64,000 bases of DNA from assembly GCF_056746865.1 (NCBI RefSeq), contig NZ_CM163382.1; one strand, 5' to 3'. Both the position numbers and the translations under genes were made by a program. Each line of letters begins with the position of its first letter. Positions within the stretch are counted from its first letter, which is position 1. This document shows positions 15,134 through 23,608 of this stretch, one piece after another. The notes under the pieces are model-generated. The model was given only the letters and a program-made list of their open reading frames with translations. It ran no database searches and was not told the origin of the DNA.

Positions 15134-16447
<1,314 letters not shown>

Positions 16448-16471
16448 GTCTGACTTTATCTGATTTAAAAA

Positions 16472-16498
16472 TGCCAGCCTTCGGGCTGGCATTTTTTA
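16472..16498 (+). terminator. rho-independent terminator after eno (gccagcc-ttcg-ggctggc + TTTTTT)
   Basis: GC stem and T-run read directly, 25 bp after eno stop. Confidence 0.8.
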
Positions 16499-16506
16499 TG
16501 GTTGAG

Positions 16507-17412
16507 TTACCAGCGACCGGACGCGCCGCCACCGCCAGAAGAACCGCCCCCGCCGCTAAAGCCACCGCCTGAGCCTCCGCCACTTGAGCCGCCACCGGAA
16601 GAGGATGAAGAAGAACCTTTTCTTGAAGCTCTTTCTTTACCGAGCTTCTTGTATTTAGCGCGTAGCTTTTTATTAACGATAAGCCAAAAAATAAGCAGTG
16701 GTACGATGGCAAAAGGCGTGAGCATACCGCAGGCAACGATTAAATTGGTCCATGGTCCTGGCTCGGCAACATAGAGGAATACCATCCCGTAAATGGCGCC
16801 AGTGAGAGTGATCCAGGGTAAATTCGACGGATCGGTAAAAACAATAAAATATGAAAGTACCGCCAGCAATATAATTACAGCAAGCGATAATGGAATAAAG
16901 GGATTGATACTGTAATAATCCCCCCTGTCTTCCGATAATTCACCATTCAACAGAAGCGCGCCGATATTTTCGCTTGCCAGTGTTAATCCACCCATCAGGT
17001 CATCACTTTTGAAGGCAGGGATCAAAATATCTCTGATAATCTTCGCCGCTTGCAGGTCGGTAACCACCCCTTCCAGCCCGTAGCCAACCTCAATACGAAC
17101 AGCATGCTCCTCCCAGGCAACCAGAAGTAAAATACCATCGTTTCTCTGCTTATCTCCCAGTTTCCAGCTATCAAAAACGCGTGCTGCATATTGTTCAATG
17201 GAATCGTCTCCGGTGGACGGCACTACTAATACAGCGACCTGCGCCCGTGTTTTATGTGTAATATCCTGCAGCTGCTGCGTTAGCGATTGCTGTTCAGACG
17301 TGCTTAACGTACCAGTAATATCAGTCACTTGTTGGCGCAGCTCCGGCACAGCAATTTGCTGGGCAAGCCCGGGAAGGCTCCACAAAGCAAGTAGAATAAA
17401 GATTAAGCGCAT
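16507..17412 (-). CDS. TPM-domain (YgcG-like) protein, paralog 1; signal peptide, C-terminal TM region, Gly/Ser tail ending SGRW
   Basis: ORF 16507..17424 uses a TTG start; preferred ATG at 17412 (MRLIFILLALWSLPGLAQQ...); TPM-like core (VAVLVVPSTGDDSIEQYA...LLLVAWEEHAVRIEVGYGLEG). Confidence 0.75.
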   Translation of the reverse strand: MRLIFILLALWSLPGLAQQIAVPELRQQVTDITGTLSTSEQQSLTQQLQDITHKTRAQVAVLVVPSTGDDSIEQYAARVFDSWKLGDKQRNDGILLLVAWEEHAVRIEVGYGLEGVVTDLQAAKIIRDILIPAFKSDDLMGGLTLASENIGALLLNGELSEDRGDYYSINPFIPLSLAVIILLAVLSYFIVFTDPSNLPWITLTGAIYGMVFLYVAEPGPWTNLIVACGMLTPFAIVPLLIFWLIVNKKLRAKYKKLGKERASRKGSSSSSSGGGSSGGGSGGGFSGGGGSSGGGGASGRW

Positions 17413-17417
17413 TACGA

Positions 17418-18566
17418 TCACCAACGGCCGGATGAACCGCCGCCTCCTGAAGAACCGCCACCACCGCGGAAAGAATTTCTCGACGAAGAGCGAGAATGAG
17501 CATTACGATTCCCCGTTTTCCTGTTGCTTTTTTCTCCTGATCCCAGCTTAAGATTGCCAGTAAATTTGGCCACAATGATCAGCAGAACGATGCCAGCAAT
17601 GGTTATTGGGCCGATAAAATGATCAATTAACCCAATAATTGTTGAGATGAATGCAATATCTTTATTACTGGCGAACACCAGGCACCATCCCACAATAATT
17701 ATCAGCATCACGACAAACAATGAATTTCGTCCTGATTCACGAACCTGCGGAGTCTTCTTTTGTTTTTTCACTTTAGCGTTTTTATTTTTTGGGGTCAGCA
17801 TCATAGGAAATACGCGGCACATATTAAAAACTACCGCGAGACGCTGCTTGCAGGTTGTTGCTAACAATAAACTAAAACAAACGACCGATACCCGCCGAAT
17901 GATGACATCGTCCTGAAAGGAGAAAAACCAGACCATAGGGGTAATCATCGATATCATCCATATGCCACGCCCTGGGCGGCTGGCAAATCGCCAGAGGACA
18001 ACGATGGCAACGATCATCAGCAGTGTCCAGGCAAGACAAGGCAGCGAACGTTGCGGATTAGCAAACAGATGATTGGCTAAAGCATCCAAAGGGCTAAGGT
18101 TCGCTTTGATATGGGTAAACTGTGCGATGCTTTCAATTCCGCCCGTTAATCCAGCAAAGAGATTGTTTTTTTCGAATTCTGGCTGCATATGGTAACGAAC
18201 AATTTGCGAAGCTTGTTCCGGCGGCAACATCTGTTCCAGTCCATGTCCAATCTTCATTGACGCCAGCCCTTCCGGCCATACGACGAGAATTAAGATACCT
18301 TCGCCATATCGCTTCTCTCCAACGGGTTTCCAGTGATATACCCCGTATCTCTGCGAGGCTGCAAGTTTAATGTTTTTGCCCCCTGTGGTCGGCGTGACCA
18401 ACACGGCCACCTGGAAGTGGTTTTGCTGCTCGAGAGTCTGTAATTGTTGAGTTAAAGCAGTTTGTTCTTCTGTCGTTAATGTCCCGGTTAAGTCAGTTAC
18501 TGAAGGCAATTGTTCAGCGAATACCTGAAAACCGCATAGCATCAGAAGTAAGAGAAAAATACGCAT
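17418..18566 (-). CDS. TPM-domain (YgcG-like) protein, paralog 2, with extended multi-TM C-terminal half; Gly/Ser tail ending SGRW
   Basis: 382-aa ORF; signal peptide; TPM-like core (VAVLVTPTTGG...LILVVWPEGLASMKIGHGLE); several hydrophobic segments. Confidence 0.75.
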   Translation of the reverse strand: MRIFLLLLMLCGFQVFAEQLPSVTDLTGTLTTEEQTALTQQLQTLEQQNHFQVAVLVTPTTGGKNIKLAASQRYGVYHWKPVGEKRYGEGILILVVWPEGLASMKIGHGLEQMLPPEQASQIVRYHMQPEFEKNNLFAGLTGGIESIAQFTHIKANLSPLDALANHLFANPQRSLPCLAWTLLMIVAIVVLWRFASRPGRGIWMISMITPMVWFFSFQDDVIIRRVSVVCFSLLLATTCKQRLAVVFNMCRVFPMMLTPKNKNAKVKKQKKTPQVRESGRNSLFVVMLIIIVGWCLVFASNKDIAFISTIIGLIDHFIGPITIAGIVLLIIVAKFTGNLKLGSGEKSNRKTGNRNAHSRSSSRNSFRGGGGSSGGGGSSGRW

Positions 18567-18580
18567 ATCAATTCCTTTTG

Positions 18581-19474
18581 TTACCAGCGCCCGGAAGCGC
18601 CACCGCCACCAGATGAACCGCCACCACCGCTGAAATTGTCATTGTTGAATGAAGAGGATGACGATGATGAATAGTGGGAGGAAGAATTGCTTCTTGTATG
18701 GCGTGATGGCTGGTTGGCATCACGCATCGAATCCCGAACCTTTTTGCCGAAGGGGGTAAAAGCGATGGCGACAGCCAGGAACGGTGTGGCGAAGCAGAGT
18801 AATGTTGCGAGTACTCCCCAGCTTCCGCTGAAGCCTGCTATAGGTAAAACAAAGGCCAGTACAATAGCTGCGAAGCAAATTACTCCCAGCGTTTTGATAT
18901 ATCCTCTGGCAGAAATAAACGTCAGTACTATCGCCCAGACTAACAAAGCCCACCAACCGCTAAAAGGCAAAGGGTGATCGGTCGGTGTTATCGTTGCTAA
19001 ATTATTCCCCGTCAGACGACTTTCAATATCGCTGATTCCCTTTTGCAAACCACCAGCCAGGTCCCCTTTTTTAAATGCCGGAATAATACTGTTGCGAATA
19101 ATTTTCCCGGACTGTGCATCCGTAATAATACCTTCCAGTCCGTAACCGATTTCAATACGCACGGTATGATCCTGCCAGGCGACTAACAGTAGAACGCCAT
19201 CATCGTGGTCTTTATCACCCGGTTTCCAGCTATCGAATACCCGCGTTGCGTACTGCTCGATGGTTTCATCGCCAGTTGTTTCAACCACTAACACGACCAA
19301 CTGTGCGTAGTTTTTTTGCGTCAGGGCTTTAATCTGGTTGGTCAGGGTGTTTACTTCGCTGTTTGTTAATGTGCCGGTTAAGTCATTCACATACTTGGGT
19401 GATTCAGGTACTGGAATTTGTGTGGCAAACACAGATGAACAGAAGAAAGCCATAAGGAAGATAAAATTTCGCAT
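18581..19474 (-). CDS. TPM-domain (YgcG-like) protein, paralog 3; Gly/Ser tail ending SGRW
   Basis: ORF 18581..19504; preferred ATG at 19474 (MRNFIFLMAFF...) preceded by GGGGAAG Shine-Dalgarno; TPM-like core (LVVLVVETTGDETIEQYA...LLLVAWQDHTVRIEIGYGLEG). Confidence 0.75.
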   Translation of the reverse strand: MRNFIFLMAFFCSSVFATQIPVPESPKYVNDLTGTLTNSEVNTLTNQIKALTQKNYAQLVVLVVETTGDETIEQYATRVFDSWKPGDKDHDDGVLLLVAWQDHTVRIEIGYGLEGIITDAQSGKIIRNSIIPAFKKGDLAGGLQKGISDIESRLTGNNLATITPTDHPLPFSGWWALLVWAIVLTFISARGYIKTLGVICFAAIVLAFVLPIAGFSGSWGVLATLLCFATPFLAVAIAFTPFGKKVRDSMRDANQPSRHTRSNSSSHYSSSSSSSFNNDNFSGGGGSSGGGGASGRW

Positions 19475-19487
19475 AGAACTTCCCCGC

Positions 19488-20090
19488 TTAATGAGCATTA
19501 GCATTCTGGCTAAAATCTATTGTTGGGGCTTTACTTACTGCGGCGACATCATCCGGCAAATAATTTTTCTTTGGTGTGTAATCCATGACCTTTGCGGTTA
19601 ACACAGCGGGGAATTTGCGGATAGTGACATTATATTGTTCAATGGCTTTAATATATCTTCCTCGCGCAACGGCAATCCGATTTTCACTTCCTTCAAGCTG
19701 TACCATTAAATTTTGATAGAGTTCCTGAGATTTTAACTCAGGGTAACGCTCACTAATTATCGTTAACTGACCGAGAGTGCGAGTCACCTGCGCTTGAGCC
19801 TGTTGCCAGGCTTGTAATTTTTGTTCATCGCCCGGAGTTTGCTGAAGATCGCTACTGGCGCGATTAGCCTGGCTACGAGCCAATGTTACGGCTTCCAGTA
19901 CATCTCGTTCATGGCTGGAATAACCTTTAATGCTGGCGACAAGATTAGGAATAAGATCGGCGCGACGTTGATATTGATTCAATACCTCAGACCAGGAGGC
20001 GTTAACCTGCTCATCATAGGTTTGAATATCGTTATATCCACAGCCTGATAAATTGAAAATAAATATAATTACGATGAATATTCTGAGCAT
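19488..20090 (-). CDS. LemA-family lipoprotein
   Basis: 200-aa ORF; lipobox LSGC; LemA-like sequence (WSEVLNQYQRRADLIPNLV...); first gene of the lemA-TPM-TPM-TPM string. Confidence 0.8.
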   Translation of the reverse strand: MLRIFIVIIFIFNLSGCGYNDIQTYDEQVNASWSEVLNQYQRRADLIPNLVASIKGYSSHERDVLEAVTLARSQANRASSDLQQTPGDEQKLQAWQQAQAQVTRTLGQLTIISERYPELKSQELYQNLMVQLEGSENRIAVARGRYIKAIEQYNVTIRKFPAVLTAKVMDYTPKKNYLPDDVAAVSKAPTIDFSQNANAH

Positions 20091-20262
20091 GTTTAAATCC
20101 CTTTTAATTAATTCCTTAAAACATAATACTCTGCTTCATTTTATTCTTTATGATCTAATCCACTTTTTGCCTTAAAACTGCCTGTAACAGAATGTTAATA
20201 AGACATGATTGTTGTGGCAGGATCTGCAATAATTAACAATTATCCACTTCACAGAGAATGCT

Positions 20263-20934
20263 ATGCAGTACCCGATTAACGAGATGTTCCAGACCCTGCA
20301 AGGTGAGGGTTACTTTACCGGCGTCCCCGCCATTTTTATTCGTTTACAGGGATGCCCGGTTGGCTGTGCCTGGTGCGACACCAAACACACCTGGGAAAAG
20401 CTTGAGGATCGGGAAGTCTCCCTTTTCAGCATTCTGGCGAAGACCAAAGAGAGTGATAAGTGGGGGGCGGCGAGCAGTGAAGACTTGCTGGCTGTCATTG
20501 GTCGCCAGGGATACACCGCGCGGCATGTGGTGATTACGGGTGGTGAGCCTTGCATTCATGATTTGCTGCCACTGACTGACCTGCTCGAAAAGAACGGTTT
20601 TAGCTGCCAGATCGAAACCAGTGGTACTCATGAGGTACGCTGCACACCGAATACCTGGGTTACCGTATCGCCAAAGCTGAACATGCGCGGCGGCTATGAA
20701 GTGTTGTCACAGGCACTGGAGCGAGCCAACGAAATCAAGCATCCAGTGGGACGCGTACGTGATATTGAAGCACTGGATGAACTTTTGGCGACGCTGACCG
20801 ATGATAAACCGCGAGTCATTGCACTGCAGCCGATTAGCCAAAAGGATGATGCCACACGATTGTGCATTGAAACCTGCATTGCTCGTAATTGGCGTTTGTC
20901 GATGCAAACACATAAATATCTAAATATTGCCTGA
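20263..20934 (+). CDS. queE: 7-carboxy-7-deazaguanine synthase QueE (radical SAM)
   Basis: 223-aa ORF; radical-SAM cysteine motif (CPVGCAWCDT). Confidence 0.9.
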   Translation: MQYPINEMFQTLQGEGYFTGVPAIFIRLQGCPVGCAWCDTKHTWEKLEDREVSLFSILAKTKESDKWGAASSEDLLAVIGRQGYTARHVVITGGEPCIHDLLPLTDLLEKNGFSCQIETSGTHEVRCTPNTWVTVSPKLNMRGGYEVLSQALERANEIKHPVGRVRDIEALDELLATLTDDKPRVIALQPISQKDDATRLCIETCIARNWRLSMQTHKYLNIA

Positions 20935-21272: not shown

Positions 21273-21850
21273 TGAGTTCCCCGCGCCAGCGGGGATAAAC
21301 CGTCTGGGCCGGATTCGATCCCGCGCGTACCGGAGAGTTCCCCGCGCCAGCGGGGATAAACCGTACAATCCCGCATCGAAACTGAATACCCCGATGAGTT
21401 CCCCGCGCCAGCGGGGATAAACCGTTGCCCAGGCTTTTGCGAAAATTTGTGATTTGGAGTTCCCCGCGCCAGCGGGGATAAACCGACACGGGGCAGATTG
21501 AGCAGGACTGCGACCTCGAGTTCCCCGCGCCAGCGGGGATAAACCGGCAGCAGATTTACAAACAGATCGGAGATTACTGAGTTCCCCGCGCCAGCGGGGA
21601 TAAACCGCGCGGCCTGCGCTCGCGTAAAATCAGTTGCAGGAGTTCCCCGCGCCAGCGGGGATAAACCGTCCGCGCAAGCCTATATAAACCAGATTGATCA
21701 GAGTTCCCCGCGCCAGCGGGGATAAACCGCGAAATCGCACGCGCTTCCCGCATGGGGGAAAGAGTTCCCCGCGCCAGCGGGGATAAACCGTGTAAAAGTC
21801 TTGGTTTTGGCGCATCATTTGTGAGTTCCCCGCGCCAGCGGGGATAAACC
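21273..21850 (+). CRISPR. type I-E CRISPR array, 10 repeats of 29 bp (GAGTTCCCCGCGCCAGCGGGGATAAACCG), 9 spacers of 32 bp, terminal repeat degenerate (ends ...CCA)
   Basis: exact 61-bp periodicity; repeats start at 21273, 21334, 21395, 21456, 21517, 21578, 21639, 21700, 21761, 21822. Confidence 0.97.
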
Positions 21851-22288: not shown

Positions 22289-22379
22289 TAGACTGGCCCC
22301 CTGAATCTCCAGACAACCAATATCACTTAAATAAGTGATAGTCTTAATACTAGTTTTTAGACTAGTCATTGGAGAGCAG

Positions 22380-22745
22380 ATGATTGATGTCTTAGGACCG
22401 GAGAAACGCAGACGGCGTACTACACAGGAAAAGATCGCTATTGTTCAGCAGAGTTTTGAACCGGGAATGACGGTCTCCCTTGTTGCCCGGCAACACGGTG
22501 TGGCAGCCAGCCAGTTATTTCTCTGGCGCAAGCAATACCAGGAGGGAAGTCTTACTGCTGTGGCCGCAGGAGAGCAGGTCGTTCCTGCCTCTGAACTTGC
22601 TGCTGCCATGAAGCAGATTAAAGAACTCCAGCGCCTGCTCGGCAAAAAAACGATGGAAAATGAACTCCTTAAAGAAGCCGTTGAATACGGGCGTGCAAAA
22701 AAGTGGATAGCGCACGCGCCCTTATTGCCCGGGGATGGGGAGTAA
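22380..22745 (+). CDS. insC: IS2 OrfA (InsC), helix-turn-helix transposase subunit
   Basis: ORF 22335..22745; preferred ATG at 22380 ([18 protein letters not shown]...), 121 aa. Confidence 0.85.
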
Positions 22746-23608
22746 GCTTAGTCAGCCGTTGTCTCCGGGTGTCGCGTGCGCAGTTGCACGTCATTCTCAG
22801 ACGAACCGATGACTGGAAAGATGGTCGCCGCAGCCGTCACTCAGATGATACGGATGTGCTTCTCCGTATACACCATGTTATCGGAGAGCTGCCCACGTAT
22901 GGTTATCGTCGGGTATGGGCGCTGCTTCGCAGACAGGCCGAACTTGATGGTATGCCTGCGATCAATGCCAAACGTGTTTACCGGATCATGCGCCAGAATG
23001 CGCTGTTGCTTGAGCGAAAAACCGCTGTACCGCCATCGAAACGGGCACATACTGGCAAAGTGGCCGTGAAAGAAAGCAATCAACGATGGTGCTCTGACGG
23101 GTTCGAGTTCCGCTGTGATAACGGAGAAAAACTGCGAGTCACGTTCGCGCTGGACTGCTGTGACCGTGAGGCACTGCACTGGGCAGTCACTACGGGCGGC
23201 TTCGACAGTGAAACAGTACAGGACGTAATGCTGGGAGCGGTGGAACGCCGCTTCGGCAACGAGCTTCCGGCGTCTCCAGTAGAGTGGCTGACGGATAATG
23301 GTTCATGCTACCGGGCTAATGAAACACGGCAGTTTGCCCGGATGTTGGGGCTTGAACCGAAGAACACGGCGGTGCGGAGTCCGGAGAGTAACGGCATAGC
23401 AGAGAGCTTCGTGAAAACGATAAAGCGTGACTACATCAGTATCATGCCTAAACCAGACGGGTTAACGGCAGCAAAGAACCTTGCAGAGGCGTTCGAGCAT
23501 TATAACGAATGGCATCCGCATAGTGCACTGGGTTATCGCTCGCCACGGGAATATCTACGGCAGCGGGCCAGTAATGGGTTAAGTGATAACAGGTGTCTGG
23601 AAATATAG
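22703..23608 (+). CDS. insD: IS2 OrfB (InsD), DDE transposase catalytic subunit, normally made as OrfAB by -1 frameshift
   Basis: 301-aa ORF overlapping orfA; rve/DDE-type sequence. Confidence 0.85.

What the first reader, a model, noticed from the sequence alone, without database searches (positions are those of the whole stretch)
16507..20090. lemA plus three tandem TPM-domain paralogs where K-12 has a single ygcG
Four co-oriented genes, lemA then three TPM-domain proteins, lie between eno and queE. All three TPM proteins have a signal peptide, a C-terminal hydrophobic region, and a Gly/Ser-rich tail ending in the identical motif ...GGGG(A/S)SGRW. The middle paralog carries an extra multi-TM module. 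LemA-TPM pairs are widespread but functionally poorly defined, and the shared C-terminal tail suggests a common sorting or interaction signal. From memory, K-12 has only ygcG here.
Basis: partly seen in the sequence, partly recalled or inferred. Interest (0 to 1): 0.5.

Follow-up and report, generated by a model that had tools for sequence, protein, structure and literature searches.

The report
LemA plus three TPM membrane proteins
Between eno and queE this E. coli strain carries an intact four-gene envelope operon (a LemA lipoprotein and three membrane-anchored TPM-domain paralogs) that laboratory K-12 keeps only as a decayed remnant; the genes belong to known, already annotated families, so the locus is fairly ordinary apart from a conserved C-terminal tail whose role is unknown.

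Summary
Window 16507-20090 (minus strand) encodes LemA and three TPM-domain proteins. Each has a signal peptide, a TPM domain, a hydrophobic block and a Gly/Ser tail ending GGGGSSGGGG[AS]SGRW. The middle paralog has two extra predicted helices.

This form is in about 20% of 5,426 complete E. coli genomes, including O157:H7. About 72-79% have the K-12 form (ygcG plus yqcG) and 6% a third form.

E. albertii is colinear with the window at 89.6% identity. The four-gene form is therefore old and K-12 is the reduced one. K-12's small gene yqcG derives from the lemA 5' end. Allele breakpoints fall in the conserved TPM core and in the tail-coding DNA.

The tail is not special to these paralogs. It marks the whole LemA-linked TPM family, which has over 10,000 cluster representatives. 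The usual operon also has a small cytoplasmic TPM gene that Escherichia lacks.

The most likely function is inferred, not shown: a periplasm-facing, metal-binding accessory module for membrane complexes, linked to envelope stress.

One result is unexplained. The tail's penultimate residue covaries with a periplasmic TPM hairpin residue, and AlphaFold docks the tail there, yet topology places the tail in the cytoplasm.

Interest is modest.

The parts
19488..20090 (-). lemA: a 200-aa LemA-family protein with a lipoprotein signal peptide (MLRIFIVIIFIFNLSG|C). It is the first gene of the operon.
   Evidence: Pfam PF04011 at E 4.6e-48 over profile positions 1-149 of 149. It matches the solved LemA structure 2etd at 7.7e-32. 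The lipobox L[ST]GC followed by GYN is present in 77 of 80 related loci, and all 80 keep the Cys. dN/dS against E. albertii is 0.03.
18581..19474 (-). TPM1: a 297-aa protein with a signal peptide, a periplasmic TPM domain, three hydrophobic helices, a basic stretch, a Ser-rich stretch and the Gly tail ...FSGGGGSSGGGGASGRW.
   Evidence: Pfam PF04536 at 2.9e-40. There are 13 nt between the lemA stop and the ATG. The gene carries a nonsense mutation in O157:H7 (codon 225, TTA to TGA) and is a pseudogene in the third allele.
17418..18566 (-). TPM2: a 382-aa divergent TPM paralog with five predicted membrane helices and the tail ...FRGGGGSSGGGGSSGRW.
   Evidence: Pfam PF04536 at 1.7e-21. The AlphaFold model has pLDDT 72 and pTM 0.49. 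Foldseek matches BA41, 7tbr and 2kw7 at E about 1e-8. There are 14 nt between the TPM1 stop and its ATG. A TPM2-type middle paralog appeared only in E. coli and E. albertii among the loci examined.
17562..18056 (-). Membrane region of TPM2 (residues about 171-335). It holds helices 171-195, 202-216, 221-251, 280-299 and 302-335 and the basic loop TPKNKNAKVKKQKKTPQVRESGRN. This is the 'extra multi-TM module': two helices more than in TPM1 and TPM3.
   Evidence: Secondary structure and low-pLDDT segments of the AlphaFold model. Insertions relative to the paralogs are visible in alignment A1.
16507..17412 (-). TPM3: a 301-aa protein with a signal peptide, a TPM domain, three helices (175-191, 198-216, 220-258), a K/R cluster and the Gly/Ser tail ...FSGGGGSSGGGGASGRW.
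   Evidence: Pfam PF04536 at 9.1e-38. The closest solved homologs are 7tbr (4.3e-23) and BA41 (8.3e-20). The AlphaFold model has pLDDT 79.7, with the TPM domain at 93-98. The TPM2 stop overlaps or abuts the TPM3 start.
16507..16560 (-). Tail-coding repeat of TPM3. Equivalent copies lie at 17418-17471 (TPM2) and 18581-18634 (TPM1). The K-12 allele breakpoint at 16578 lies just inside this gene's tail-coding region.
   Evidence: The three DNA copies are only 75-84% identical, although 16 of the 17 tail residues are the same in all three. The peptide is therefore held by selection, not by recent gene conversion. K-12 homology (98%) runs from eno to 16578.
16467..16497 (.). Bidirectional terminator hairpin between the TPM3 stop and the eno stop: an A-tract, TGCCAGCC-CGAA-GGCTGGCA, then a T-tract.
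   Evidence: Read directly from the sequence printed. The pattern scan did not list it, probably because the A and T tracts extend the stem.
20091..20262 (.). Divergent lemA-queE intergenic region, presumed to hold the promoter of the operon. It is identical to K-12 for about 85 nt next to queE and only about 72% identical nearer lemA.
   Evidence: Alignment. In K-12 this region is bound by PhoP-P in EMSA, and deleting yqcG raises queE expression (PMC4974570). It also carries a sigma-S ChIP-seq peak (PMC4447067). The promoter consensus scan was uninformative.

Best explanation
The four genes form one operon that encodes an envelope module.

LemA is exported and lipid-anchored, and faces the periplasm. 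Each of the three TPM proteins is exported by a cleavable signal peptide. Each displays a TPM domain that probably binds a divalent metal in the periplasm. Each is held in the inner membrane by an odd number of helices (3, 5, 3) and ends in a disordered Gly/Ser tail with an almost invariant terminus, ...GGGGxxGGGG[AS]SGxW.

The operon is the Escherichia version of the widespread proteobacterial operon lemA / tail-bearing TPM / small cytoplasmic TPM. In Escherichia the small cytoplasmic TPM gene is missing and the membrane TPM gene has been multiplied by old tandem duplications.

The locus is a recombining paralog array. Crossovers in the conserved TPM core and in the tail-coding DNA have produced several alleles. 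K-12's yqcG-ygcG is the most reduced of them.

The function is inferred, not shown. Other TPM proteins are accessory subunits or assembly and repair factors on the outer face of energy-transducing membrane complexes: Psb32/TLP18.3 for photosystem II, Msmeg_4692 in the CIII2CIV2 supercomplex, CcoZ for the cbb3 oxidase, and YdjH with PspA. By analogy, the module most likely acts as a chaperone-like accessory of inner-membrane complexes. Expression is probably driven from the stress-responsive promoter region that in K-12 drives yqcG-ygcG.
For: Operon structure:
- All four genes are on the same strand, with gaps of 13 and 14 nt and an overlapping junction, and a single hairpin terminator after TPM3.

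Family assignment:
- Pfam, PDB sequence matches and Foldseek on the TPM2 model.

Localisation:
- The LemA lipobox is present in 77-80 of 80 loci, and the TPM proteins have signal peptides.
- K/R clusters follow the last helix. The helix count is 1 in BA41, 3 in the usual family member and 5 in TPM2.

Metal site:
- D31, L36 and E40 are invariant in the four E. coli paralogs.
- By my reading of the alignment to 7tbr, they fall at the Asp / Leu-carbonyl / Glu site described for CrLMTP1 and Rhom172_1776 in bioRxiv 10.1101/2024.10.28.620569.

Usual three-gene operon:
- A tail-bearing TPM follows lemA in 70 of 80 loci, and a small TPM without a signal peptide follows in 56 of those 70.

Age and selection:
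- E. albertii is colinear at 89.6%, and dN/dS is 0.03-0.27.

Allele series and breakpoints:
-.

Functional analogy:
- Foldseek hits include Psb32 (8c7i), TLP18.3, LMTP1 and accessory chains of the actinobacterial supercomplex (8ovc_V, 8hcr_J, 6hwh_O, 6adq_J).
- CcoZ and Msmeg_4692 are described in PMC8267372. A chaperone-like role for TPM is proposed in bioRxiv 10.1101/2020.09.24.301986.

Stress link:
- RefSeq names yqcG a cell envelope stress response protein. The sigma-S peak is and PhoP binding.
- lemA and a TPM gene are both up-regulated in a Flavobacterium sppA mutant.
Against: - No experiment bears on these genes. The partner complex is unknown, and the function rests on analogy with distant TPM proteins (10-28% identity).
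- The module is dispensable in E. coli. K-12 has lost lemA. TPM1 carries a nonsense mutation in O157:H7 and is a pseudogene in the third allele.
- Transcription as one unit, and control by the K-12 promoter, are both inferred. The promoter-proximal part has diverged to about 72%, and the promoter scan found nothing above chance.
- The tail-hairpin covariation is not accounted for by this model.
Confidence: 0.45

Rival explanations
1. The TPM domains are periplasmic metal-dependent phosphatases or nucleotidases (ecto-ATPase/ADPase type). The three paralogs have diverged in substrate, and LemA is a scaffold.
For: - The family is named for a phosphatase activity.
- The closest solved homologs are BA41 and Rhom172_1776.
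- The D/L/E residues at the proposed metal site are invariant in all paralogs, and a metal site of this kind is described.
[quoted passage not shown] That BA41 is an ATPase/ADPase is my recollection, not checked here.
Against: - The same preprint states that there is no consensus on the role of the TPM domain, nor a single function attributable to it.
- TPM proteins seen in solved complexes are non-catalytic accessory subunits.
- TPM2 has diverged in conserved motifs (GHGLE in place of GYGLE; 77 bits against about 130).
- An enzyme role does not explain the membrane block or the invariant tail.
Confidence: 0.2
2. The conserved C-terminus is a tethered ligand. The last residues (..ASGxW) add a beta strand to the sheet of a TPM domain, in cis or between protomers and paralogs. 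This latches or oligomerises the proteins, so the three paralogs with identical termini form mixed assemblies.
For: - Both AlphaFold models put the last five residues in a strand with raised confidence. In TPM3, residues 291-300 average pLDDT 72 and W301 scores 94, after a stretch at 34-40. The only other strands belong to the TPM domain.
- The penultimate residue covaries with the residue in the turn between TPM strands C and D. When the tail residue is R or K, the turn residue is basic in 6 of 42 representatives. Otherwise it is basic in 82 of 88. This is the top mutual-information column.
- Among the 42 closest pairs that differ in tail class, 32 change in the expected direction and none in the reverse. 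The best control column gives 14 against 1.
- All four E. coli paralogs have R in the tail and a non-basic turn residue.
Against: - Topology places the tail and the TPM domain on opposite sides of the membrane. The helix count is odd (1, 3 or 5), and K/R clusters follow the last helix in BA41 (TTKKGRG), TPM1, TPM2 and TPM3.
- AlphaFold and the covariation use related alignments, so they are not independent.
- No matching covariation was seen with the small cytoplasmic TPM protein.
Confidence: 0.2
3. The interval is a variable accessory island under diversifying pressure, for example an anti-phage defence or a phage or colicin target. The paralog turnover would reflect an arms race.
For: The locus is multi-allelic with mosaic recombinants. 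It sits next to a CRISPR array and an IS element.
Against: - No protein matches any PADLOC defence model.
- The interval holds no integrase or other mobility gene.
- The arrangement is syntenic with E. albertii at the identity expected between the two species.
- dN/dS is well below 1.
- The same operon type is a conserved chromosomal feature across Proteobacteria.
Confidence: 0.05
4. The array is decaying and contributes nothing in E. coli. The intact copies in this strain have simply not been lost yet.
For: lemA is lost in K-12-type strains (72-79% of genomes). TPM1 carries a nonsense mutation in O157:H7 and is a pseudogene in 340 genomes. In E. albertii the terminal Trp codon of TPM2 is a stop codon.
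Against: All four ORFs are intact here and are under purifying selection over the E. coli-E. albertii divergence (dN/dS 0.03-0.27). The tail peptide is conserved despite 16-25% DNA divergence between the copies.
Confidence: 0.1

Closest known systems
E. coli K-12 ygcG / yqcG (the same locus)
   Same: Same position between eno and queE, and the same flanks (98% and 95% identity). YgcG has the same architecture and an identical tail ...FSGGGGSSGGGGASGRW. The upstream region is shared.
   Different: - K-12 has one TPM gene instead of three, and no lemA.
- YgcG is only 31-41% identical to TPM1-3. It behaves as a fourth paralog type that also occurs as a chimera behind TPM2 or TPM3 in other strains.
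- The 5' two-thirds of yqcG derive from the lemA leader and signal-peptide coding region. The lipobox Cys is lost and a new upstream start codon is used.
Usual proteobacterial operon: lemA / tail-bearing TPM (COG1512, YgcG type) / small TPM
   Same: lemA comes first and has the lipobox LSGC-GYN. It is followed directly by a TPM protein of 280-300 aa with a signal peptide, a hydrophobic block of about 60-75 aa and the tail GGGGxxGGGG[AS]SGxW.
   Different: - Escherichia has three (elsewhere two or one) tail-bearing TPM genes instead of one.
- It lacks the small cytoplasmic TPM of about 165 aa, which is present in 56 of 70 loci.
- LemA is only about 50% identical to the nearest homologs outside Enterobacteriaceae, and close homologs are rare within the family.
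BA41 of Bizionia argentinensis (PDB 5anp) and Rhom172_1776 (PDB 7tbr)
   Same: These are the closest solved TPM domains (E 8.3e-20 and 4.3e-23; Foldseek TM-score on the target 0.79-0.87). Full-length BA41 has the same plan: a signal sequence, a TPM domain, a membrane helix and a Gly tail ending GGGGASGGW.
   Different: BA41 has one membrane helix, not three or five. Identity is 22-28%. No LemA context was examined for either protein.
Psb32 / TLP18.3, Msmeg_4692 and CcoZ (TPM accessory proteins of photosystem II and respiratory complexes)
   Same: The same fold, on the outer (lumenal or periplasmic) face of an energy-transducing membrane, and membrane-anchored.
   Different: Sequence identity is 10-17%. 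The NCBIfam Psb32 model scores 31-40 bits against a cut-off of 160. These proteins have no Gly tail and no LemA partner, and no partner complex is known for the E. coli proteins.
MamQ (LemA-family magnetosome protein)
   Same: It shares the LemA domain (NCBIfam MamQ model, E 1.5e-25).
   Different: The score is 89.9 bits against a cut-off of 250, so this is not an equivalog. There is no magnetosome context.

Membership tests
LemA family (Pfam PF04011) | Match to the family profile above the gathering score, over the whole domain | tested here: met
   163.3 bits against a cut-off of 26.2; E 4.6e-48; profile positions 1-149 of 149.
LemA family (Pfam PF04011) | N-terminal membrane anchor. In Proteobacteria this is a lipoprotein signal peptide. 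| tested here: met
   MLRIFIVIIFIFNLSG|CGYN. The same lipobox is in 77 of 80 related loci, and all 80 keep the Cys. Lipidation itself cannot be tested here.
LemA family (Pfam PF04011) | Relationship to the solved LemA structure | tested here: met
   phmmer against 2etd_A gives E 7.7e-32, aligning residues 22-178. No structure was predicted for this protein.
TPM domain family (Pfam PF04536) | Match to the family profile above the gathering score | tested here: met
   137.6, 77.0 and 129.5 bits against a cut-off of 22.1 for TPM1, TPM2 and TPM3.
TPM domain family (Pfam PF04536) | The alpha/beta TPM fold | tested here: met
   The TPM-domain parts of the AlphaFold models are confident: 10-residue block means mostly 91-97 in TPM2 and 93-98 in TPM3. 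The TPM2 model matches 5anp, 7tbr, 2kw7, 3pvh, 2lt2 and 8c7i with probability 1.0.
TPM domain family (Pfam PF04536) | Divalent-metal site (Asp, Leu carbonyl, Glu) as in Rhom172_1776 and CrLMTP1 | tested here: met
   D31, L36 and E40 are invariant in TPM1-3 and YgcG. Mapping them onto the described site is my reading of the alignment to 7tbr. The site is described in bioRxiv 10.1101/2024.10.28.620569. Binding itself is not testable here.
TPM domain family (Pfam PF04536) | Phosphatase or nucleotidase activity | not testable with these tools
   This needs enzyme assays. The literature read here reports no consensus on activity.
YgcG-type tail-bearing TPM proteins (COG1512 architecture) | Signal peptide, TPM domain, hydrophobic block, and a Gly-rich tail ending [AS]SGxW at the C-terminus | tested here: met
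   All three paralogs have it. The tail logo was built from 66 sequences. 137 of the 150 best representatives end G[AS]SGxW.
Usual three-gene operon: lemA / tail-bearing TPM / small TPM | lemA immediately upstream of the tail-bearing TPM gene | tested here: met
   The gap is 13 nt in the window. The same order holds in 70 of 80 loci, and most of the rest are cut by contig ends.
Usual three-gene operon: lemA / tail-bearing TPM / small TPM | Third gene: a small TPM protein (about 165 aa) without a signal peptide | tested here: not met
   Present in 56 of 70 loci. Absent from the E. coli, E. albertii, Entomohabitans, Pseudomonas nitroreducens-group and Erwinia persicina loci. In the window, eno follows TPM3 directly.
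Photosystem II repair protein Psb32 (NCBIfam NF047379, equivalog) | Score above the curated cut-off | tested here: not met
   33.8 bits for TPM1 and 31.2 for TPM3 against a cut-off of 160; TPM2 has no hit. These are only distant TPM relatives.
MamQ (NCBIfam NF040966, equivalog) | Score above the curated cut-off | tested here: not met
   89.9 bits against a cut-off of 250.
Known anti-phage defence systems (PADLOC-DB 2.0) | Match of any component to a defence-protein model | tested here: not met
   No families matched any of the four proteins, or the 120-aa protein of the third allele, at E <= 0.01.

The most novel reading that the evidence does not exclude
The nearly invariant C-terminus of LemA-linked TPM proteins (GGGGxxGGGG[AS]SGxW) is a tethered beta-strand ligand that docks next to the strand C-D turn of a TPM domain. 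Charge compensation between the penultimate tail residue and the turn residue would reflect this contact.

If real, one of two things follows. Either the accepted topology of a family with more than 10,000 cluster representatives is wrong and the tail returns to the periplasm, or the tail binds a TPM fold in trans.

In Escherichia, the three paralogs with identical termini would then cross-dock into mixed assemblies. That would give the first concrete handle on what LemA-TPM modules do.
Probability: 0.2. Interest if true: 0.6.

Novelty: new member of a known kind. Interest (0 to 1): 0.33.

Why it matters
- LemA and TPM proteins are among the common bacterial envelope families still without a function. 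Here E. coli offers natural alleles with three, two, one or zero intact partners, which is a ready-made genetic series.
- The work shows that K-12, the usual model, carries the degraded form. Its 'small stress protein' YqcG is built from the leftover leader of lemA. This matters for how YqcG and the neighbouring PhoP-controlled queE promoter are interpreted.
- The tail-hairpin covariation gives a specific, cheap experiment for a very large family.
- None of this changes the basic verdict. The genes are known, annotated families in a known variable interval.

Tried and rejected
- **Defence system:** PADLOC gave no hits. Rejected.
- **Equivalogs:** the NCBIfam Psb32 and MamQ models both score far below their cut-offs. 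No membership is claimed.
- **Bacteriocin:** the weak Pfam hit of the TPM3 tail to YxzE-like bacteriocin (21.8 bits against a cut-off of 40) was treated as a compositional artefact.
- **Promoter and terminator scan:** four promoter-like sites were found against 6.3 expected, and the obvious terminator hairpin was missed. Uninformative.
- **yqcG as an internal deletion of lemA:** I tested whether the 3' third of yqcG is the 3' end of lemA. The alignments are too weak and gappy. Only the 5' homology is claimed.
- **Tail against the small cytoplasmic TPM:** no charge-type pattern appeared in 56 operon pairs.
- **Literature:** searches for TPM with LemA, ygcG, yqcG and the COG/DUF identifiers found no study of this operon.
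- **Model coordinates:** they are not exposed, so the strand that pairs with the C-terminus could not be identified.
- **Ancestral array:** I considered a five-gene ancestor (lemA-TPM1-TPM2-TPM3-YgcG) to explain the chimeras. It is plausible, but no such genome was looked for.

Full report
**1. What is in the sequence**

Between eno (15149-16447, +) and queE (20263-20934, +) lie four minus-strand ORFs:
- lemA, 19488-20090
- TPM1, 18581-19474 (the ORF can extend to 19504)
- TPM2, 17418-18566
- TPM3, 16507-17412 (the ORF can extend to 17424)

Pfam assigns the first to LemA (E 4.6e-48, full profile). It assigns the other three to the TPM domain (2.9e-40, 1.7e-21, 9.1e-38).

The genes are packed tightly. 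There are 13 nt between lemA and TPM1 and 14 nt between TPM1 and TPM2, and the TPM2 stop touches the TPM3 start. A single A-tract/hairpin/T-tract terminator (16467-16497) is shared with eno.

The three TPM proteins are 36-44% identical to each other. Each has:
- a Sec-type signal peptide
- the TPM domain
- a hydrophobic block
- a K/R-rich and Ser-rich stretch
- the ending FxGGGGSSGGGG[AS]SGRW

**2. The middle paralog**

The AlphaFold model of TPM2 (pLDDT 72) shows a confident TPM domain followed by five helices: 171-195, 202-216, 221-251, 280-299 and 302-335. A disordered, strongly basic loop lies at 252-279.

TPM3 (pLDDT 79.7) has three helices: 175-191, 198-216 and 220-258. The 'extra multi-TM module' is real and adds exactly two helices, so the side of the membrane on which the tail ends up is unchanged.

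**3. How the locus varies in E. coli**

Among 5,426 complete genomes:
- The whole interval is covered at 80% or more in 1,102 genomes. TPM2/TPM3 DNA is found in 1,114, including O157:H7, O55:H7, O145 and APEC O18.
- The K-12-specific ygcG-yqcG DNA is found in 4,290 genomes, and at 80% coverage or more in 3,929.
- A third allele occurs in 340 genomes. It has lemA, a TPM1 pseudogene and an unrelated 120-aa membrane ORF.

It is not an insertion either. E. albertii is colinear with the window from queE to eno at 89.6% identity over 6.2 kb. That is about the divergence expected between the two species. All four genes are under purifying selection across it (dN/dS 0.03, 0.19, 0.27, 0.15).

**4. How K-12 relates to it**

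K-12 matches the window from eno up to 16578, which is 24 codons into the tail-coding end of TPM3. It matches again from 20056, inside the first codons of lemA, onward.

The start of K-12's yqcG aligns with the untranslated leader of lemA. After a 1-nt deletion, yqcG codons 13 to about 27 align in frame with the LemA signal peptide: VKTFTKIIFIF against LRIFIVIIFIF. The lipobox Cys is gone. The 46-residue 'cell envelope stress response protein' YqcG is thus largely a relic of lemA.

K-12 YgcG has the same architecture and tail, but it is only 31-41% identical to TPM1-3. Other strains show that it is a further paralog type:
- Strain 25DN has lemA-TPM1-TPM2 followed by a chimera. The first 60 or so codons are TPM3-like and the rest is 96.6% identical to K-12 ygcG.
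- The GTDB reference E. coli has lemA-TPM1-TPM3-like followed by the same kind of chimera.

The recurrent crossover points are the conserved TPM core (..IEQYAxRVFD..) and the tail-coding DNA. The locus is a tandem paralog array reshaped by unequal and allelic recombination.

Decay is also seen. In O157:H7, TPM1 codon 225 is TGA instead of TTA. In E. albertii the terminal Trp codon of TPM2 is TAG.

**5. The wider family**

A scan of one genome per species with LemA found homologs above 70% identity in only four loci: E. coli, E. albertii, Entomohabitans and one Enterobacteriaceae MAG. The next best hits, at about 50%, are in Pseudomonas, Burkholderiales and Xanthomonadales.

In 70 of 80 loci, lemA is followed directly by a TPM protein of about 280-330 aa that ends GGGGxxGGGG[AS]SGxW. 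Most of the other loci are cut by contig ends. In 56 of the 70, a third gene encodes a TPM protein of about 165 aa with no signal peptide or membrane segment, so presumably cytoplasmic. Escherichia and its nearest LemA relatives lack this gene.

The LemA lipobox L[ST]GC-GYN is present in 77 of 80 loci, and all 80 keep the Cys.

The tail logo over 66 sequences is nearly invariant: four Gly, two variable residues, four Gly, A/S, S, G, x, W. A profile search of 1.84 billion cluster representatives finds 36,283 relatives at E <= 1e-3 and 10,740 at E <= 1e-30. Of the 150 best, 137 end G[AS]SGxW. The Bacteroidota protein BA41 (PDB 5anp) has one membrane helix and the same ending.

The tail is therefore a hallmark of the family, not of these paralogs. 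Within the window the three tail-coding stretches are only 75-84% identical in DNA, although 16 of the 17 tail residues are the same in all three. Selection on the peptide, not recent gene conversion, keeps them alike.

**6. Topology**

Signal peptides put the TPM domains in the periplasm, and the lipobox puts LemA there too.

The number of helices between the TPM domain and the tail is one in BA41, three in the usual family member and five in TPM2. The family-wide hydrophobic profile reads as a 16-residue segment, a loop of the form RxxxGR, then 38 hydrophobic residues with an SGS turn.

K/R clusters follow the last helix in BA41 (TTKKGRG), TPM1, TPM2 and TPM3. By the positive-inside rule the tail is cytoplasmic. 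This is inference; no experiment was found.

**7. An unexplained signal**

Both AlphaFold models place the last five residues in a beta strand with raised confidence. In TPM3, residues 291-300 average pLDDT 72 and W301 scores 94, after a stretch at 34-40. The only other strands are those of the TPM domain.

I then looked for covariation. In 59 operon-linked proteins, the penultimate residue x of ..SGxW tracks the residue in the turn between strands C and D, in the motif KDDR-[x]-xRIEVGYGLEG.

In an independent set of 130 representatives, no two more than about 50% identical, the result holds:

| Tail residue x | Turn residue basic |
|---|---|
| R or K | 6 of 42 |
| Any other | 82 of 88 |

This is the top mutual-information column.

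Among the 42 closest pairs that differ in tail class, 32 change in the expected direction and none in the reverse. The best of 21 control columns gives 14 against 1. All four E. coli paralogs follow the rule, with R in the tail and T or A in the turn.

This looks like charge compensation across a contact, yet the topology above puts the two residues on opposite sides of the membrane. The small cytoplasmic TPM shows no matching pattern. I could not inspect coordinates or run complex predictions. AlphaFold and the covariation draw on related alignments, so they are one signal, not two.

**8. Function**

No paper on this operon was found.

Evidence from the proteins:
- The closest solved relatives are TPM domains of unknown or debated activity.
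- D31, L36 and E40 are invariant in the E. coli paralogs. By my reading of the alignment to 7tbr, they correspond to the Asp / Leu-carbonyl / Glu metal site described for CrLMTP1 and Rhom172_1776.
- Foldseek also matches Psb32, TLP18.3, LMTP1 and accessory chains of the actinobacterial CIII2CIV2 supercomplex.

Evidence from the literature:
- Msmeg_4692 is identified as the TPM protein of that supercomplex. The TPM protein CcoZ is needed for normal cbb3 oxidase activity in C. jejuni (PMC8267372).
- A comparative study of PspA proposes a chaperone-like role for TPM proteins in assembling membrane complexes.
- In K-12 the shared upstream region binds PhoP-P, and its deletion raises queE expression (PMC4974570). 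The region carries a sigma-S ChIP peak (PMC4447067).
- RefSeq names yqcG a cell envelope stress response protein.
- lemA and a TPM gene rise together in a Flavobacterium sppA mutant with membrane stress.

I therefore favour a periplasm-facing, metal-binding accessory or assembly module for inner-membrane complexes that is expressed under envelope stress. My confidence is about 0.45, and most of the doubt is in the function. The rivals are a periplasmic phosphatase or nucleotidase, a tethered-ligand or oligomerisation device, a defence or arms-race island (no PADLOC hit), and a decaying array.

**9. Verdict**

The genes belong to known families and are annotated as such in RefSeq genomes, including O157:H7.

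What the analysis adds:
- the allele series and its breakpoints
- the ancestry of the four-gene form
- the origin of yqcG
- the family-wide nature of the tail
- the missing third gene
- a robust but topologically puzzling covariation

Interest is modest at 0.33. I rate it a new member of a known kind.

Noticed in passing
L001 (K-12) 2567-2634, against window 20056-20123: The K-12 small gene yqcG (46 codons, annotated as a cell envelope stress response protein) aligns with the leader and signal-peptide coding region of lemA. It is in the same frame after a 1-nt deletion and has lost the lipobox Cys. It looks like a relic of lemA rather than an independent gene family.
   Followed up: yes
window 20091-20262 (lemA-queE intergenic region): The region is identical to K-12 for about 85 nt next to queE, then only about 72% identical. 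In K-12 this DNA binds PhoP-P, and deleting yqcG raises queE expression (PMC4974570). The alleles of this locus may therefore differ in how queE, and the queE-dependent division block, is regulated.
   Followed up: no
window 21274-21845: A CRISPR array of 10 repeats (GAGTTCCCCGCGCCAGCGGGGATAAACCG, 61-nt period) lies downstream of queE. K-12 has an annotated CRISPR at the same place.
   Followed up: partly
window 22335-23608: An IS3-family insertion sequence lies just beyond the CRISPR array. Its two overlapping ORFs carry the HTH_Tnp_1 domain and the rve integrase core.
   Followed up: partly
L002 1604-1966 (strain GCM74-1-1; the same DNA in 340 E. coli genomes): In the third allele, TPM2 and TPM3 are replaced by 428 nt. 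This DNA encodes a 120-aa hydrophobic protein with no Pfam, NCBIfam or PADLOC match, and the adjacent TPM1 is a pseudogene.
   Followed up: partly
L003 (O157:H7 DEC4E), equivalent to window TPM1 codon 225: TPM1 is cut short by TTA to TGA. This removes the last helix and the tail, and RefSeq annotates a 225-codon CDS.
   Followed up: yes
L006 4976-4980 (E. albertii NBRC 107761): The terminal Trp codon of the TPM2 ortholog is TAG instead of TGG. This copy lacks the otherwise nearly invariant last residue.
   Followed up: yes
L021-L084, immediately downstream of the tail-bearing TPM gene (for example L022 8414-8923): A conserved third gene encodes a TPM protein of about 165 aa with no signal peptide, the motifs WDTExNNGVLIYLLLADR and ADRGI, and the ending NELPDxPVxL. 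It is present in 56 of 70 loci and absent from Escherichia.
   Followed up: partly
H1 (NZ_AP022173.1, strain WP7-S17-ESBL-01): This is the only listed genome 100% identical to the window over the interval. Its match is split into two pieces, and an IS4 transposase is annotated within it.
   Followed up: no
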